A DNA stretch of 64,000 nt from UHGV virus genome UHGV-0072281, one strand, 5' to 3'. The notes below the pieces were generated by a model. That model had not been told where the DNA came from. It made no database searches and saw only the letters and a list, made by a program, of their open reading frames with translations. Each line of letters begins with the position of its first letter. The first letter of the stretch is position 1. This DNA is from a virus. Position numbers and translations under genes: made by a program. Below, piece after piece: positions 5,384-56,578 of this stretch.

Positions 5384-5424
5384 TCAGATATATATTACTT
5401 AGGTGAGAGAATTACGTAATACTC
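5384..5424 (+). promoter_or_regulatory. conserved phage promoter motif (TCAGATATATATTAC-TTAGGTGAGAG) plus downstream palindrome
   Basis: One of four near-identical copies in the window; lies after a terminator and ~50 nt before an RBS and ATG. Confidence 0.55.
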
Positions 5425-5455: not shown

Positions 5456-5599
5456 ATGATTTCTGTAAAACACAAAAAAGCTATCTTCGCTGTTGTTATC
5501 GCTGTTGTTCTGGGTTGCCTGTACCTGGATATCGACAAAGGCTACGACACTTGCATCGACAACGGTAATTCCGTTGCGCAGTGCACTGGTCGTGGTTAA
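5456..5599 (+). CDS. small lipoprotein-like membrane peptide (47 aa)
   Basis: AGGAG RBS; hydrophobic N-terminus ending VLGC (lipobox-like); three Cys; codon usage of a highly expressed gene; own promoter and terminator. Below the length cutoff of the ORF track. Confidence 0.5.
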   Translation: MISVKHKKAIFAVVIAVVLGCLYLDIDKGYDTCIDNGNSVAQCTGRG

Positions 5600-5653: not shown

Positions 5654-6469
5654 ATGATTACTATTAAAGATTATTTTCCGCGTGGGTTGAGCAATGAAAA
5701 CTTCGTTCCAACTGAAGACATTGCCATCGTTGCAGAGTCCAGCGATAAGTCTTTTAAACTCTACTTGAGTACGGCAGCAGGAAAATCCACTCTTATCCTT
5801 CGTGAACCTGAAGTGATAAGCATCTGCTCGTTTGGGGGTGGTGTAGAAGGAACGATTAACTGGTTGAAATCCAGAATGCATCGTTTGCTTATCGTGAATA
5901 CCGATCCTGTGATTCGTTTACAGCAATTGAAATCGTTGAATGAAATTATCGTCGGATTATTGGAACATGAAACGTTTGGTAATGCTGAGATTGCGGAAGC
6001 GATTAAATCTGTAGAACTAATCGAGTGGAGCGATATCGAATACGAACGTGCTGGGTTATTCGCAATGTACGGTGATGATAATCCCGTTGCGTTTGCACAA
6101 ACGTTGGATAATGTTACCGTAACAGCGCGCGTATTGTTTGGTTTACAACGTGTTGAGTTTGAACTGAAACACGTCTACGTGAGCAATAAACCGGAGATGG
6201 TGGAGACATTGATTCGTGCTTTCGCATACCCGTTAGACGGTGAATGGGAACAGCAGATTAATGAAGCGTTAGAAGCCATGCATTTCCTGGCTGAAACGTT
6301 AAGGAAGGATGAGAAATTGAAAGGTCGTGTTTATCCAGAACACGATTTTGTTTGTGAAGAATGTGGAGCACAGTATCAAATCCGTGTTCCTTTAACCGGC
6401 CTAACATTCCCGCAAGCCAACGTGCAATGTAAGGAATGTGGTCATGTTCAATACGTAGCGATTAAATAA
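5654..6469 (+). CDS. hypothetical protein with C-terminal CxxC...CxxC zinc ribbon
   Basis: ATG with GGAG upstream; C-terminal CEECG...CKECG pair. Confidence 0.6.
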   Translation: MITIKDYFPRGLSNENFVPTEDIAIVAESSDKSFKLYLSTAAGKSTLILREPEVISICSFGGGVEGTINWLKSRMHRLLIVNTDPVIRLQQLKSLNEIIVGLLEHETFGNAEIAEAIKSVELIEWSDIEYERAGLFAMYGDDNPVAFAQTLDNVTVTARVLFGLQRVEFELKHVYVSNKPEMVETLIRAFAYPLDGEWEQQINEALEAMHFLAETLRKDEKLKGRVYPEHDFVCEECGAQYQIRVPLTGLTFPQANVQCKECGHVQYVAIK

Positions 6470-6475
6470 AAGCAA

Positions 6476-6517
6476 CCCCTAATCCCGAAAAGGATTAGGG
6501 GTACACTTTATTTATTT
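6476..6517 (+). terminator. rho-independent terminator
   Basis: cccctaatcc/ggattagggg stem followed by a T-rich tract. Confidence 0.65.
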
Positions 6518-6541
6518 TCGCTCTTAAAAGGAAATTGTGTC

Positions 6542-6697
6542 ATGAGAAATGTTAATGCAATGCTTAACCAGGCATTTGTTAACCAACAGCGTTTTCAGGA
6601 ACGCTTAGCACAACTTAAAACACAACACAGACCACCACAACAAAGAGTGGTTAAGAGCAAGTTCGGCGAAATGGTTTTCGAAAGAAAATCTTTCTAA
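6542..6697 (+). CDS. small basic protein, paralogue A of a tandem triplet (51 aa)
   Basis: AAGGA RBS; shares FxERL and C-terminal F(E/T)ERxS with the next two small ORFs; own terminator. Confidence 0.45.
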   Translation: MRNVNAMLNQAFVNQQRFQERLAQLKTQHRPPQQRVVKSKFGEMVFERKSF

Positions 6698-6706
6698 TAA
6701 CCGTTA

Positions 6707-6729
6707 GGGGTGTGACAGCACCCCTTTTT
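6707..6729 (+). terminator. rho-independent terminator
   Basis: ggggtg/cacccc stem followed by TTTTT. Confidence 0.55.
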
Positions 6730-6847
6730 ACGCTTTAACTTTTCCAAAGAGAAGTTAAAGCAGTAAGGACTGTTGGCGCAGTCCTTACTTGTCATCGCTA
6801 TTACAGAAACGTGATAGCACAATTCTAATTTTTAGAGGCGATCAGAA

Positions 6848-7015
6848 ATGTTCGACAGTATTACACAAATTTTTAACACTACCGTAAACAATCACGCTCA
6901 GCAAGCGAAGTTTAATGAACGATTAAGGGAAGTTCAACAATTAGGATTAAATAAAAGATTAAAATCTTCCAATAATCCTCGAGTACAGATCTTCACCGAA
7001 AGGAGAAGTAACTGA
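6848..7015 (+). CDS. small basic protein, paralogue B (55 aa)
   Basis: AGAGG RBS; QLGxNKRLKxSxN...QIxTExRS shared with paralogue C. Confidence 0.5.
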   Translation: MFDSITQIFNTTVNNHAQQAKFNERLREVQQLGLNKRLKSSNNPRVQIFTERRSN

Positions 7016-7024
7016 TAAAAACAA

Positions 7025-7052
7025 GGTGAGCTGTTGGAGCAGCTCACCTTTT
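7025..7052 (+). terminator. rho-independent terminator
   Basis: ggtgagctg/cagctcacc stem followed by TTTT. Confidence 0.65.
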
Positions 7053-7111
7053 ACAACGCCATTACGTTTCCGTAATGGATTTCTTTAATCACCCTACAAA
7101 GAGGGCTTACC

Positions 7112-7285
7112 ATGAACAATGGTTACTACTTTACTGACAAAATGCTTGCAGAACAATATGCAGCAAAAACCAATTTACAGCAACGTATCTACGAGTATAG
7201 TCAACTCGGTGCGAATAAACGATTAAAACCATCAACCAACCGTTTCACACAGATAATCACTGAAAAAAGGAGTGAACGCTACTAA
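7112..7285 (+). CDS. small basic protein, paralogue C (57 aa)
   Basis: AGAGGG RBS; clear protein-level similarity to paralogue B. Confidence 0.5.
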   Translation: MNNGYYFTDKMLAEQYAAKTNLQQRIYEYSQLGANKRLKPSTNRFTQIITEKRSERY

Positions 7286-7420
7286 CTAATAAAAGGGGGT
7301 GTGCTACCACCCCCTACTTAGTTCAGCAGTTGTCTTTCGTTCATAAATATTAGATGTCTTGTTTTTTTTTGCTTTTCGGGACGCATAAGGGGTCGTAGGG
7401 GGAGCCGAAGCTCCCCAGAC

Positions 7421-8983
7421 TCAAAAGAGTTCGTCACCCATACCGCCTGTAAAGACGTTAATCGACGATGCAGTCACTGTTTCTTCTTTATCGCAATCCC
7501 ATGGCAGAATGCCAACTTCACGGAAAGGTATTACTGTATAATGGTAAGCTTCTTTAGTATCGATAATTGTACGGTGTTTACCACGTTGTACTTCTAAGTA
7601 ACTATGCCCATTGACAACACGTTTGTTAAAATACATCTCACCGTCAGCTTCGTTATCCAAGCTGGAGCAGTTATCGTAAAGACCGCGACCTGGTAAGTTC
7701 TTACAGAAACTTGCTGGGTCTAACGCTTTTAATTTTTTGCCTTCTGGTGAGATTTGGTGTGGCGCTAACAAGAAACCACGGTTACGTACTACCTGGATGT
7801 TTCGAGCGATACGATAAATTTCTTTAATGTCGCTACCGGCAATCCCGTTACCGTGACCTGCTTTACTGATAGTCCCGAAATAGTCTCCGCGAATCCCAGC
7901 TACATGATAACCTCGACGCTTTAAGTCCAGTATTAAGTCGTTTAAGTAATGTATTTTAAAATCTGAGTTTGTGTGTTTCTGAAAGATGTACTCCCAACCG
8001 TTAGCCCGCATTTTACTACAGAGGTAGTCCGACATTTTTGTGTTGTGTAAAGCTTTCTCTTCGTCGGTAGCGTTTTCAGAAGCAACCATAACCGGTGCTT
8101 CACCTTCAAAATGACCGTAGAGCGCTTGGTACGCATACGCCAAATTAACGTCCAGTTCGTTCTCTAAACTTAAATCGAGAATAACCGGCTGTAAATCCCC
8201 TTTAACGTTTTCCATTACCTTTTCAGGCGTATTGAATACCGGAATACTGATAGACAACAACAGACTAAAAAGCGATTTACAGTTAAAGGGCAGTGCAGGC
8301 ATTAGCCAAAGTTCTTCAGTAATCCCTTTGTTACAACCCAACATCTGGTTAATGGCTTTCCATCCGGTACGTAAACCATTACCCGCTGCTTTCTTACTGA
8401 TTGAGTCGAACACATGTACGAACGGTGCACGGTTATCCGTAATAAGTTCACCTACGAGTGAGGGAATCTTATTATGAGAGCGTTCACTGAACGTAGAGAG
8501 ACTATCTCTGAGGTCGTTGAGCGCTGTTTGTAAATCAACGCGCGTTTCGGTTCCGTTCAGTGCGCCTAACGTACGACCTAATTTTTGTTTCAGTTGTACG
8601 CCTTGAATAGCTTGACGTAATTGGAAGTAGTATTGTGCTACTTGACGGTTAAGATGCTCGATGCGTGCTTCTGGTTCTTCTGGAATATCATCTTCCAGGA
8701 ATTTGGTAATCGTATCGTATAGAGGACGTATTTGCGTAGTGGCCAGTTTCAAACGTTTCATGACGTTTGTGTGGTCGTAAGGCATACCGCCGTCTATGAT
8801 GGATGTGATGATATCCTTGATTTCGACGAGGGCGGCACGTTCGTCACCTTCCTCTACGTAATCAGGAAGCTTAGCCTCTAACAGCACTTTTCTTATGACC
8901 TCGTGATCCTTCTCAGGGTCGGTCAGCAGACTTTCAGTGTATAGTGTGGCTAATGCGGTTATCAACATCATTTTGTTATTCAT
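7421..8983 (-). CDS. hypothetical protein (520 aa)
   Basis: Long minus-strand ORF; no motif recognised. Confidence 0.6.
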   Translation of the reverse strand: MNNKMMLITALATLYTESLLTDPEKDHEVIRKVLLEAKLPDYVEEGDERAALVEIKDIITSIIDGGMPYDHTNVMKRLKLATTQIRPLYDTITKFLEDDIPEEPEARIEHLNRQVAQYYFQLRQAIQGVQLKQKLGRTLGALNGTETRVDLQTALNDLRDSLSTFSERSHNKIPSLVGELITDNRAPFVHVFDSISKKAAGNGLRTGWKAINQMLGCNKGITEELWLMPALPFNCKSLFSLLLSISIPVFNTPEKVMENVKGDLQPVILDLSLENELDVNLAYAYQALYGHFEGEAPVMVASENATDEEKALHNTKMSDYLCSKMRANGWEYIFQKHTNSDFKIHYLNDLILDLKRRGYHVAGIRGDYFGTISKAGHGNGIAGSDIKEIYRIARNIQVVRNRGFLLAPHQISPEGKKLKALDPASFCKNLPGRGLYDNCSSLDNEADGEMYFNKRVVNGHSYLEVQRGKHRTIIDTKEAYHYTVIPFREVGILPWDCDKEETVTASSINVFTGGMGDELF

Positions 8984-16750: not shown

Positions 16751-16782
16751 AGGAGAGCCGAAGCTCTCCTCCTTTATTTTTA
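16751..16782 (+). terminator. rho-independent terminator
   Basis: aggagagc-cgaa-gctctcct hairpin followed by a T-rich tract. Confidence 0.7.
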
Positions 16783-32260: not shown

Positions 32261-32300
32261 TCAGATATATATTACCTTAGTGAGATTACACAGTAATCTC
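32261..32300 (+). promoter_or_regulatory. conserved phage promoter motif plus 8-bp hairpin (gagattac/gtaatctc)
   Basis: Copy 2 of TCAGATATATATTACC; directly after a terminator; precedes the XRE regulator gene. Confidence 0.55.
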
Positions 32301-52148: not shown

Positions 52149-52192
52149 TCAGATATATATTACCTAGAGGAGAGTGAAATTTACATTCACTC
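52149..52192 (+). promoter_or_regulatory. conserved phage promoter motif plus hairpin (gagtgaa/ttcactc)
   Basis: Copy 3 of TCAGATATATATTACCTAG; directly after a terminator. Confidence 0.55.
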
Positions 52193-56536: not shown

Positions 56537-56578
56537 TCAGATATATATTACCTAGGTGAGAGTTCAGTTACTCTCACT
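56537..56578 (+). promoter_or_regulatory. conserved phage promoter motif plus hairpin (gtgagagt/actctcac)
   Basis: Copy 4 of TCAGATATATATTACCTAGGTGAGAG. Confidence 0.55.

What the first reader, a model, noticed from the sequence alone, without database searches (positions are those of the whole stretch)
6542..7285. Tandem triplet of paralogous ~55-aa basic micro-proteins, each with its own RBS and terminator
The three ORFs (51, 55 and 57 aa) share QLG-x-NKRLK-x-S-x-N...QI-x-TE-x-RS and C-terminal basic tails, indicating selection at the protein level. Each is its own mini-cistron separated by strong hairpin terminators, and the intergenic spaces carry extra hairpins. No function is known to me; the size and charge would fit nucleic-acid-binding or host-takeover factors.
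Basis: seen in the sequence. Interest (0 to 1): 0.6.

Follow-up and report, generated by a model that had tools for sequence, protein, structure and literature searches.

The report
Shuffling micro-protein gene cassettes, jumbo phage
Three real genes for ~55-residue basic proteins of unknown function sit in a variable spot of an SPN3US-like jumbo phage, separated by conserved hairpin spacers where related phages gain, lose and swap such genes; this is an interesting but not unprecedented kind of phage accessory locus.

Summary
The three ORFs exist as described (6542-6697, 6848-7015, 7112-7285, + strand). B and C are clear paralogs (BLASTP E=4e-11). A is a distant member that only profile comparison joins to them, and it lacks the quoted QLG-NKRLK motif. 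The window is an SPN3US/phiEaH2-like jumbo phage. The ORFs belong to a lineage-restricted family that includes SPN3US gp71/gp72 (phrog_18219, unknown function). It always sits next to the 3' end of the convergent DnaB-like helicase gene. pN/pS of 0.16-0.21 shows they encode proteins. They are basic (pI 9.8-11.7) and predicted as one long helix plus a floppy basic tail, with no known fold or domain. Across 27 related loci the content varies (A-B-C, D-B-E, D-F-C, D-C, B-F, F-E and others), with frameshifted and truncated remnants. The spacers are a repeated hairpin module; its 11-bp hairpin shows compensatory change at 7 of 11 pairs. One genome differs from another by exactly one cassette plus module. 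Several hairpins are oriented as terminators for the opposite strand. The array lies at the far end of a putative early operon. Function remains unknown; a host- or nucleic-acid-binding accessory role is inferred. The closest analogue is PeSL-mediated shuffling in T4-like phages.

The parts
5384..5398 (+). Putative early (virion-RNAP) promoter motif TCAGATATATATTAC at the head of the operon that ends in the micro-ORF array
   Evidence: Four exact copies on the + strand of the window. The 12-mer GATATATATTAC is conserved at the syntenic site in 42 of 52 fetched loci, including SPN3US and phiEaH2. It contains TATATTAC, listed as the predicted phiKZ promoter in PMC7058600 Table 2. Activity was not tested.
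5456..5599 (+). 47-aa single-pass membrane micro-protein gene, first gene after the early-promoter motif
   Evidence: ORF. Homologs with a C-x-x-NGNS-x-x-x-C-TGRG tail sit at the same position in SPN3US, phiEaH2 and others.
5654..6469 (+). 271-aa protein with a C-terminal zinc ribbon, homolog of SPN3US gp70; left anchor of the variable locus
   Evidence: phrog_10180 E=2.9e-8 and weak Zn-ribbon Pfam hits. Syntenic with SPN3US_0070. SPN3US gp70 is reported as essential and non-virion (PMC5105663).
6475..6502 (+). T0: 11-bp terminator hairpin of the 271-aa gene. The T-rich tail TTTATTTATTTTCGC that follows is the conserved left junction of the variable region
   Evidence: Homology between relatives with different cassettes ends right after this tail. 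The loop is inverted (CGAAAA vs TTTTCG) between near-identical relatives.
6542..6697 (+). Micro-ORF A, 51 aa, pI 11.7; distant family member closest to the D type and to SPN3US gp71/gp72
   Evidence: Variant P0032 is found in other samples.
6706..6725 (+). T1: GC-rich hairpin AGGGGTGT-GACA-GCACCCCT followed by TTTTT; canonical intrinsic terminator of ORF A
   Evidence: Sequence, fold. It recurs after most cassettes in relatives.
6732..6761 (+). H2: 13-bp AU-rich hairpin GCTTTAACTTTTC-CAAA-GAGAAGTTAAAGC. Its sequence is conserved as far as SPN3US (TTTATTTTC...GAAAATAAA)
   Evidence: Single copy in the window. Present only at this locus in four IMG/VR genomes. 98.9% of cells paired, with an invariant U.G wobble on the + strand. 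SPN3US, L010, L011 and L013 versions.
6762..6789 (.). H3: 11-bp hairpin A[GA]N7CTG-N6-CAGN7'[CT]T. The structure is conserved and the stem sequence covaries; it has a U-rich tail on the - strand
   Evidence: 7 of 11 pairs change on both sides, 99.6% paired, 0 of 500 shuffles reach the covariation score. Scored as a - strand terminator. The SPN3US and L013 counterparts have a UUCG loop and a U-tract on the - strand.
6797..6818 (+). H4(B): 8-bp hairpin GCTATTAC-AGAAAC-GTGATAGC specific to the B/G cassette leader
6848..7015 (+). Micro-ORF B, 55 aa, pI 11.4
   Evidence: Seven distinct natural alleles give pN/pS 0.19; the C-terminal 34 codons are nearly invariant (ratio 0.11).
7023..7050 (.). H3-type 11-bp hairpin AAGGTGAGCTG-TTGGAG-CAGCTCACCTT after ORF B, followed by TTTTAC
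   Evidence: The L004 counterpart AAGGTTCGCTG...CAGCGAACCTT shows compensatory changes.
7059..7078 (+). H4(C): 8-bp hairpin CCATTACG-TTTC-CGTAATGG in the leader of cassette C
   Evidence: The loop is found in both orientations (TTTC / GAAA) among relatives.
7112..7285 (+). Micro-ORF C, 57 aa, pI 9.8
   Evidence: pN/pS is 0.17 from 4 distinct alleles and 0.16 from 8.
7294..7315 (-). GC hairpin AGGGGGTG-TGCTAC-CACCCCCT. The U-tract is on the - strand only, so it probably ends helicase-side transcripts rather than ORF C
7352..7420 (-). Conserved non-coding stretch next to the helicase stop: T9 run, GACGCATAA box, and hairpin GGGGAGC-CGAA-GCTCCCC (UUCG loop on the - strand)
   Evidence: Conserved in SPN3US, L010 and L011. 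The hairpin core GAGCCGAAGCTC occurs three times in the window.
7421..8983 (-). Divergent DnaB-like replicative helicase, convergent with the array; right anchor of the locus
   Evidence: PF20307 E=4.9e-126 and phrog_3213 E=7.5e-199. 84% identical to the SPN3US and phiEaH2 helicases.

Best explanation
The region is a hyperplastic accessory locus of an SPN3US-like, phiKZ-type jumbo phage. It lies in the gap between two convergent conserved genes: the gp70-like zinc-ribbon gene and the DnaB-like helicase.

The locus holds an array of one to three cassettes. Each cassette is a short structured leader, a Shine-Dalgarno site and an ORF of about 50 aa. All the ORFs belong to one lineage-specific family, which includes SPN3US gp71/gp72 (phrog_18219).

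The proteins are real, since they are under purifying selection. They are small, hydrophilic and basic. The predicted structure is one long amphipathic helix with a conserved face, F-x-[QE]-R-[LVIM]-x-[EQ]-[LVY], followed by a flexible, positively charged tail or beta-hairpin.

The cassettes are separated by a repeated spacer module (T1, H2, H3, plus a cassette-specific H4). This module does two things.
1. It punctuates transcription in a convergent zone. T1 is a terminator or 3'-end hairpin for the + strand, H3 is one for the - strand, and the arms of H2 supply their U-tracts.
2. Its roughly 65-90 nt of repeated sequence is the substrate for homologous recombination. This recombination deletes, duplicates and swaps cassettes within and between co-infecting phages, and so produces the different cassette sets seen in otherwise near-identical genomes.

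Shown: the ORFs, the paralogy, the selection, the restricted distribution, the variable content, the module covariation, and junctions that fall in the module.

Inferred: early expression, from the upstream TATATTAC-type promoter motif. Also inferred: the proteins are dispensable accessory factors that bind a polyanionic or groove-bearing partner (nucleic acid, or a host or phage protein), with the paralogs diversifying that interaction.
For: Identity of the phage: helicase 84% identical to SPN3US and phiEaH2, with conserved gene order.

Family: hmmsearch and profile hits in the syntenic gap of relatives. 69 clusters, all unnamed or named 'hypothetical', in a 5.8-billion-protein search; the full-length contigs that carry them are about 220-250 kb. 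Only 15 representatives reach E<=1e-3 in an exhaustive HMMER scan of 1.84 billion proteins. 46 isolated Salmonella, Erwinia, Escherichia and Proteus jumbo-phage records carry the family. SPN3US-type members hit phrog_18219 at 1e-13 to 1e-30. hhalign bridges the subfamilies.

Coding: pN/pS 0.16-0.21.

Protein properties: pI 9.8-11.7. AlphaFold gives helix 2-34 plus a low-confidence tail, or helix plus beta-hairpin for SPN3US gp71.

Variable content: 27 loci with about ten different cassette architectures, a frameshifted D cassette and truncated G, F and C remnants, while the flanks are 89-100% identical.

Module: 30 unique instances. H3 changes on both sides at 7 of 11 pairs, with 99% of cells paired and 0 of 500 shuffles reaching the score. 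Spacer folding z-scores are -8.15 and -6.23. The module is confined to this locus.

Recombination: L044 equals L046 minus one F cassette plus one module, and the T1-H2 stretch aligns to both flanks. Homology breaks between the window and L004, L005, L006 fall at T0/H2, in the module, or at ORF ends. Chimeric proteins exist, for example P0005, a D body with an F tail.

Early context: promoter motif.

Strand orientation of the hairpins.
Against: There is no expression data of any kind. gp71 and gp72 are not mentioned in the SPN3US virion and essential-gene paper read here, and the infection-proteome paper could not be read.

No promoter motif lies in front of the individual ORFs, and strong hairpins precede B and C, so it is unclear how they are transcribed.

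The recombination role of the module is inferred from junction positions, not observed. Junctions also occur inside ORFs.

The biochemical role is pure inference. There is no domain, fold or homolog with known function.

The pN/pS values pool all pairs of a few related alleles, so they are not independent comparisons.
Confidence: 0.7

Rival explanations
1. The region is functional only as structured RNA or DNA (terminators, small RNAs). On this view the small ORFs are chance reading frames between hairpins and are not translated into functional proteins.
For: Hairpin density is very high and the stems clearly covary. The ORFs are tiny and have no known domain. Frameshifted and truncated copies are tolerated.
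Against: Synonymous changes exceed non-synonymous changes about five-fold in three cassette types. Subfamilies that can no longer be aligned at the DNA level keep ORF length, start position, a Shine-Dalgarno site and the F-x-x-R-hydrophobic-x-E core. Every genome examined in the window clade keeps at least one intact copy.
Confidence: 0.05
2. The hairpins are ordinary intrinsic terminators, piled up because two transcription units converge here. The variation in cassettes then comes from ordinary illegitimate or homologous recombination anywhere in a dispensable region, and the spacer module has no special role in shuffling.
For: T0, T1 and the SPN3US H3 look like canonical terminators on one strand or the other. 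The H2 arms can be explained as the two U-tracts. Some junctions lie inside ORFs, for example the 3' end shared by B and D and the start shared by C and E. Similar strong hairpins follow many genes elsewhere in the window.
Against: The module is a 65-90 nt direct repeat at 80-97% identity within single loci. At least one clean indel (L044 vs L046) has its crossover inside the module. Two to four consecutive hairpins per spacer is more than termination needs.
Confidence: 0.2
3. The micro-proteins are phage-encoded mimics or homologs of ribosomal protein bL34, which has the same length and is also a basic protein, and they act on the ribosome.
For: The best PDB sequence hit of the family profile is bL34 (E=0.47), collinear over positions 1-42 and sharing F-x-x-R-M/L and a K-G pair.
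Against: hhalign against a bL34 alignment gives probability 0.2% over 5 columns. Real bL34 sequences score no better than 2-65% of their own shuffles against the family HMM. No family member hits Pfam Ribosomal_L34. The Arg/Lys residues of bL34 that contact rRNA are mostly Gln in the phage proteins.
Confidence: 0.02
4. The array is an integron-like or otherwise enzyme-driven cassette system. On this view the hairpins are recombination sites for a dedicated recombinase.
For: The cassettes are promoterless small ORFs, each followed by an imperfect palindrome, and content varies at a fixed site.
Against: The adjacent genes are a Zn-ribbon protein and a helicase, not a recombinase. The junction evidence is explained by homology between repeated modules. 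The hairpins have no conserved attC-like boxes, and their loops flip freely.
Confidence: 0.03

Closest known systems
SPN3US gp71 and gp72 (SPN3US_0071/0072; YP_009153365/6) and phrog_18219, 'unknown function'
   Same: They occupy the same position: after the gp70-type gene and convergent with the helicase. Size is the same (47-49 aa) and both are basic. They share the core F-[NQ]-Q-R-[VL]-Q and are tandem paralogs. Profile-profile match to window ORF A/D types is 95%, E=2.3e-8.
   Different: SPN3US-type members end in an invariant KGLGG[DE]I[IVL]F motif that is absent from the window proteins. Window ORFs B and C belong to a diverged subfamily with a QLG-x-NKRLK linker. hmmscan does not assign them to the PHROG. 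The window clade has seven types with rapid turnover.
PeSL (promoter-early stem-loop) composite terminator/promoter motifs that mediate modular shuffling in hyperplastic regions of T4-like phages (PMC2839356, PMC4122927)
   Same: Short repeated intergenic motifs containing stem-loop terminators flank small ORFs of unknown function in a hypervariable region. Closely related phages differ by indels and replacements whose junctions lie in the motif.
   Different: The phage family is different, and these phages use their own RNA polymerases. No early-promoter consensus is present in the module. The module is confined to one locus rather than dispersed. The cassettes here are all paralogs of one family rather than unrelated ORFs. 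No circular intermediates have been shown.
Morons of lambdoid phages (own knowledge)
   Same: Small accessory genes inserted between conserved genes, each with its own terminator, and dispensable for lytic growth.
   Different: Morons usually carry their own promoter, are unrelated to each other, and are expressed from prophages. Here the phage is a lytic jumbo phage, the genes are paralogs, and no promoter is evident.
Integron gene cassettes with attC hairpins (own knowledge)
   Same: An array of promoterless small ORFs, each followed by a palindromic element, with variable content at a fixed site.
   Different: There is no integrase next to the array, no attC box structure, and the junctions are explained by repeat homology.

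Membership tests
phrog_18219 / SPN3US gp71-gp72 family | Significant sequence or profile match to family members | tested here: met
   For ORF A: hhalign of A/D types vs SPN3US-type alignment gives 95.3%, E=2.3e-8 over 45 columns. For B and C the link is weaker and partly indirect: 62%, E=7.6e-5 over 23 columns directly, and 79.5%, E=1.5e-5 via the A/D types. Direct hmmscan against the PHROG: A E=0.086, B and C no hit.
phrog_18219 / SPN3US gp71-gp72 family | Syntenic position in the gap facing the 3' end of the divergent DnaB-like helicase gene | tested here: met
   Same position in SPN3US, L010, L011, L013 and all window-clade loci.
phrog_18219 / SPN3US gp71-gp72 family | C-terminal KGLGG[DE]I[IVL]F motif (invariant K, G, L, G, G, I in 16 members) | tested here: not met
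   Absent from A, B and C. The equivalent positions are SKFGEMVF, NPRVQIFT and NRFTQIIT. The window proteins are therefore relatives in a wider superfamily, not members of the narrow PHROG.
PeSL-type shuffling cassettes (T4-like phages) | Repeated intergenic motif containing a stem-loop terminator, flanking variable small ORFs | tested here: met
   The T1-H2-H3 module occurs in 30 unique instances across loci, often twice per locus.
PeSL-type shuffling cassettes (T4-like phages) | The motif also contains an early promoter | tested here: not met
   The early-promoter motif (TCAGATATATATTAC / GATATATATTAC) has no match with up to 3 mismatches in 6470-7420. Only TATTAC / CATTAC fragments lie in the H4 arms, which is not above chance.
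PeSL-type shuffling cassettes (T4-like phages) | Indel and replacement junctions between close relatives fall in the motif | tested here: met
   In L046 vs L044 the crossover lies inside the duplicated T1-H2 stretch. In the window vs L004, L005 and L006, homology breaks fall at T0/H2 and in the module. Some junctions are inside ORFs.
PeSL-type shuffling cassettes (T4-like phages) | Excised circular recombination products detectable during infection | not testable with these tools
   Requires PCR on infected cells.
Intrinsic (Rho-independent) terminators, one per ORF | GC-rich stem followed by a U-tract on the coding strand | tested here: inconclusive
   After A: met (CACCCCTTTTT). After B: four U. 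After C: no U-tract on the + strand, but a U-rich tail on the - strand. Whether jumbo-phage RNA polymerases terminate here is unknown.
Ribosomal protein bL34 (Pfam Ribosomal_L34) | Significant match to bL34 sequences or profile | tested here: not met
   PDB profile hit E=0.47 only. hhalign probability 0.2%. The shuffle control shows no excess score. 0 of 35 members hit the Pfam model.
Integron cassette array | Adjacent integrase and attC sites with conserved boxes | tested here: not met
   The neighbours are a Zn-ribbon protein and a DnaB-like helicase. The hairpins share no attC-like boxes and their loops invert freely. The rest of the window was not scanned for recombinases.

The most novel reading that the evidence does not exclude
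The locus may be a dedicated diversification device. On this reading a hairpin-bounded, self-shuffling array lets a population of jumbo phages mix and match variants of one early-expressed helical peptide. Each variant would neutralise or hijack a different allele of a host factor or a different defence system. The conserved H2-H3 element would be a functional RNA/DNA signal (bidirectional termination plus a recombination hotspot) that co-evolved with the gene family from the window clade to SPN3US and the Machina-like Erwinia phages.
Probability: 0.15. Interest if true: 0.7.

Novelty: new variant of a known kind. Interest (0 to 1): 0.42.

Why it matters
Most genes of nucleus-forming jumbo phages have no known function, and their small early genes are thought to be a reservoir of host-takeover and anti-defence activities.

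This locus offers a compact natural experiment. One micro-protein family has at least seven types in one phage clade. Cassettes are gained, lost and swapped between genomes whose flanking genes are 89-100% identical. SPN3US, which carries two homologs (gp71 and gp72), is a genetically tractable model in which to test them.

The locus also suggests that modular shuffling through repeated terminator-like motifs, described for T4-like phages, operates in a quite different phage lineage. In addition, it gives a conserved hairpin module and an early-promoter motif that can be tested directly by RNA end-mapping.

If the proteins turn out to be dispensable fillers, the locus is still a clean example of birth-and-death evolution of micro-genes in a convergent-transcription gap.

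Tried and rejected
1. No near-identical DNA of the region in the GenBank phage collection (megablast). tblastn with ORF B found nothing, and ORF A gave only a spurious hit at E=0.2. Short, low-complexity queries fail here; local HMM searches on fetched loci worked instead.

2. Rfam: only a chance CrcZ fragment (E=0.098, 17 bits against a gathering score of 95).

3. Pfam, NCBIfam and PHROGs on the window proteins gave nothing significant. The weak NCBIfam hits of relatives (an endonuclease/exonuclease/phosphatase-family model, Csy4) sit far below the curated cut-offs and were dismissed.

4. The bL34 lead from the PDB profile search was rejected by hhalign and by a shuffle control.

5. Foldseek of both AlphaFold models against BFVD and PDB gave no matches. 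The models are a lone helix with a low-confidence tail, so this says little.

6. P0070 is a 287-aa secreted repeat protein that matches the profile in 5 stretches (E=4e-8). It has a repeated helical motif F-x-x-R-V-x-E-L-x-x-E-G-L and was judged repeat-driven similarity, not homology. It was not pursued.

7. Sigma-70 promoter scan: 3 sites against 3.9 expected, so uninformative. These phages use their own RNA polymerases.

8. Literature: no mention of gp71 or gp72 in the SPN3US papers available. The infection-proteome paper (PMC6384053) and the phiKZ transcription paper (PMC4178840) are not held.

9. The integron-like reading was rejected for lack of an integrase or attC features.
Full report
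**What the window is**

The 520-aa ORF on the minus strand just right of the finding (7421-8983) is a divergent DnaB-like helicase (PF20307 E=4.9e-126; phrog_3213). It is 84% identical to the helicases of Salmonella phage SPN3US and Erwinia phage phiEaH2. Gene order around it matches those phages: a capsid-side 174-aa gene, the helicase, and a 271-aa protein with a zinc ribbon that corresponds to SPN3US gp70. The window therefore comes from an SPN3US-like, phiKZ-type jumbo phage. Near-identical and 88-98% identical contigs of about 220-227 kb exist in IMG/VR, ENA, Logan and NCBI assemblies. One relative is deposited as a 221.9-kb circular 'plasmid' of a urinary E. coli isolate.

**Check of the observation**

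- A, 6542-6697, 51 aa.
- B, 6848-7015, 55 aa.
- C, 7112-7285, 57 aa.

Each has an AGGA/GAGG box 6-9 nt before the ATG. All three are basic, with the charge in the C-terminal half.

B and C are clear paralogs (19 of 39 identical, E=4e-11). A is nevertheless a family member. Together with the D type from relatives, it matches the SPN3US-type proteins at hhalign probability 95.3% (E=2.3e-8, 45 columns). It matches the B/C/E/F/G subfamily at 79.5% (E=1.5e-5).

Hairpins are strongly enriched: 9 terminator-like sites against 1.8 expected. The spacers fold far better than shuffles (z=-8.15 and -6.23).

**The family**

SPN3US carries two 48-aa homologs at the same place, gp71 and gp72. A profile search of 5.8 billion proteins found 69 clusters, unnamed or called 'hypothetical'; the full-length contigs carrying them are about 220-250 kb. 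An exhaustive HMMER scan of 1.84 billion representatives found only 15 hits at E<=1e-3, essentially the same set.

Among isolated phages the family is in 46 records of Salmonella, Erwinia, Escherichia and Proteus jumbo phages. It is absent from the syntenic gap of phiEaH2 and several other relatives. The SPN3US-type members form phrog_18219, 'unknown function'. The window proteins are not captured by it.

No Pfam, NCBIfam or PDB relative exists. AlphaFold predicts a long N-terminal helix (residues 2-34 of B) and a low-confidence tail. For gp71 it predicts a helix plus a tentative beta-hairpin. Foldseek finds nothing.

The conserved core is F-x-[QE]-R-[LVIM]-x-[EQ]-[LVY], which lies on one face of the helix.

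**Are they genes?**

Yes, as far as sequence can show. Natural alleles recovered from 27 loci give pooled pN/pS of 0.19 (B, 7 alleles), 0.16-0.17 (C) and 0.21 (F). In B/G the C-terminal 34 codons are almost invariant (ratio 0.09-0.11) despite pS of about 0.2. Subfamilies that no longer align as DNA still keep length, start position, Shine-Dalgarno site and core motif.

**The locus is a cassette array**

Seven cassette types (A-G) occur in the window clade. Genomes whose flanking genes are 89-100% identical carry different sets:

| Locus | Cassette content |
|---|---|
| window | A-B-C |
| L004 | D-B-E |
| L005 | F-E |
| L006 | truncated G, C, truncated F, E |
| L021-L026 | frameshifted D, G, C |
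| L027-L040 | B-F |
| L032 | F-C |
| L044 | D-C |
| L045, L046 | D-F-C |

The E. coli 'plasmid' copy contains an intact D-type ORF and an intact E-type ORF (sequence), of which only the E-type one is annotated.

Chimeras and read-through variants occur, for example a D body with the F tail LPSWWS, and an N-terminally extended E. Individual cassettes are therefore dispensable and turn over quickly, yet every genome examined in this clade keeps at least one intact copy.

**The spacers**

Between cassettes lies a repeated module. In the window its parts are:
- **T1** (6706-6725): a GC hairpin followed by a U-tract.
- **H2** (6732-6761): a 13-bp AU-rich hairpin.
- **H3** (6762-6789): an 11-bp hairpin. 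The hairpin after B (7023-7050) is a second H3-type copy.
- **H4** (6797-6818 and 7059-7078): a cassette-specific 8-bp hairpin.

On an alignment of 21 distinct instances, 99.2% of cells pair. H3 shows changes on both sides at 7 of 11 pairs, and 0 of 500 shuffles reach the observed covariation.

H2 behaves differently. Its sequence, not just its structure, persists in SPN3US, Machina-like and pEa_SNUABM_11-like phages (TTTATTTTC...GAAAATAAA). It carries an invariant U.G wobble on the + strand.

In SPN3US and L013 the hairpin before H2 has a UUCG loop and U-tail on the + strand. The hairpin after H2 has a UUCG loop and U-tail on the - strand. The simplest reading is a back-to-back pair of terminators, one for each of the two convergent transcription units, with the H2 arms serving as their U-tracts. 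The hairpin after ORF C (7294-7315) likewise has its U-tract only on the - strand.

The module occurs only at this locus.

**Recombination**

L044 equals L046 minus one F cassette and one module. The 65-nt T1-H2 stretch of L044 aligns to both copies that flank F in L046. This is the footprint of recombination between direct repeats. Between the window and L004, L005 and L006, homology ends right after the T0 tail TTTATTTATTTTCGC, which resembles an H2 5' arm. Homology resumes in the module or at ORF ends. B and D share the last codons and stop region at 96% identity, a junction for chimeras. This parallels PeSL-mediated shuffling in T4-like phages (PMC2839356, PMC4122927). Unlike PeSLs, the module contains no recognisable early promoter.

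**Expression context**

The motif TCAGATATATATTAC occurs four times on the + strand of the window. One copy lies at 5384-5398, about 60 nt upstream of a conserved 47-aa membrane-protein gene that heads the run of genes ending in the micro-ORFs. Its 12-mer core is conserved at the syntenic site in SPN3US, phiEaH2 and more distant relatives. It contains TATATTAC, listed as the predicted phiKZ promoter (PMC7058600). AT-rich conserved motifs of this kind mark early, virion-RNAP promoters in this phage group (PMC7598289).

The micro-ORFs are therefore probably distal early genes reached by read-through. This is inference, because no promoter sits in front of each ORF. SPN3US gp70, the upstream gene, is essential and non-virion, and gp71/gp72 are not mentioned in that study (PMC5105663).

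**Function**

Function is unknown. I commit, with low confidence, to accessory early proteins that use the conserved helical face and a basic tail to bind a polyanionic or groove-bearing partner. That partner could be nucleic acid, or a host or phage protein. On this view paralog turnover reflects adaptation to hosts.

The bL34 resemblance (E=0.47) was tested and rejected.

**Verdict**

The finding is real but partly mis-described. It is a new and broader view of a family already catalogued as 'hypothetical', organised as a hairpin-punctuated, recombining cassette array. It is of moderate interest.

Noticed in passing
window 5384-5398, 32261-32275, 52149-52163, 56537-56551 (+ strand): Four exact copies of TCAGATATATATTAC, all on the + strand. 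The core GATATATATTAC is conserved at the syntenic site in SPN3US, phiEaH2 and more distant relatives, and it contains the phiKZ-type TATATTAC. These are likely early (virion RNA polymerase) promoters of this phage group.
   Followed up: partly
window 6475-6502, 6762-6789, 7059-7078, compared with loci L004, L021-L046: Hairpin loops are exactly reverse-complemented between otherwise near-identical genomes while the stems stay the same. Examples: T0 CGAAAA vs TTTTCG; H3 TTGGCG vs CGCCAA and GTGCTA vs TAGCAC; H4 TTTC vs GAAA. Both T0 loop orientations occur among L044, L045 and L046, three genomes with 99-100% identical flanks, which suggests the flip is frequent, probably by template switching at palindromes. 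H2 was never seen flipped.
   Followed up: partly
window 7352-7420: The non-coding stretch between the array and the helicase stop is conserved across genera. It has a T9 run, a GAC[GA]CATAA box, and a hairpin with a UUCG loop on the - strand. The hairpin core GAGCCGAAGCTC also occurs at 16755 and 33418. It may be the helicase 3' UTR or terminator, or a small RNA ending at the - strand terminator 7315-7294.
   Followed up: no
window 5456-5599 (+): A 47-aa single-pass membrane micro-protein (MISVKHKKAIFAVVIAVVLGCLYLDIDKGYDTCIDNGNSVAQCTGRG) is the first gene after the early-promoter motif. It is conserved in every relative examined, with a C-x-x-NGNS-x-x-x-C-TGRG tail. It is a better-conserved micro-protein than the ones in the finding.
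   Followed up: no
L053 = NZ_CP173450.1 87627-92441 (E. coli strain 98232, 'plasmid p98232-contig_4', 221,873 bp, circular): A relative of this jumbo phage (92.5% identity over the matched parts) is deposited as a plasmid of a complete clinical E. coli genome. This points to E. coli as a host and to a carrier state or co-purified phage. PGAP annotates only one micro-ORF there, although an intact D-type ORF is also present in the sequence.
   Followed up: partly
proteins P0002, P0003, P0005, P0008, P0017, P0025, P0051, P0055 (relatives of window 6542-7285): Natural variants include in-frame chimeras (a D body with the F tail LPSWWS), N-terminal extensions that read through the leader hairpin, cassette fusions, and frameshifted C-termini that run into the terminator. 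The C-terminal few residues are therefore loosely constrained, or these alleles are decaying.
   Followed up: partly
L001 (SPN3US) about 5870-5910 on the - strand of the locus, just upstream of gp72: The sequence GCGATATATTAAC lies between gp71 and gp72 in SPN3US. It resembles the early-promoter core with one extra base, so gp72 may have its own weak early promoter. The window spacers have only TATTAC / CATTAC inside the H4 arms.
   Followed up: no
upstream of the ATG in window 7088-7094 and in SPN3US, L010, L011, L013: A short box (A)ATCAC(A) lies about 20-30 nt upstream of the micro-ORF start codon in several clades, between the last hairpin and the Shine-Dalgarno site. It could be a transcript 5' end or a processing site.
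   Followed up: no
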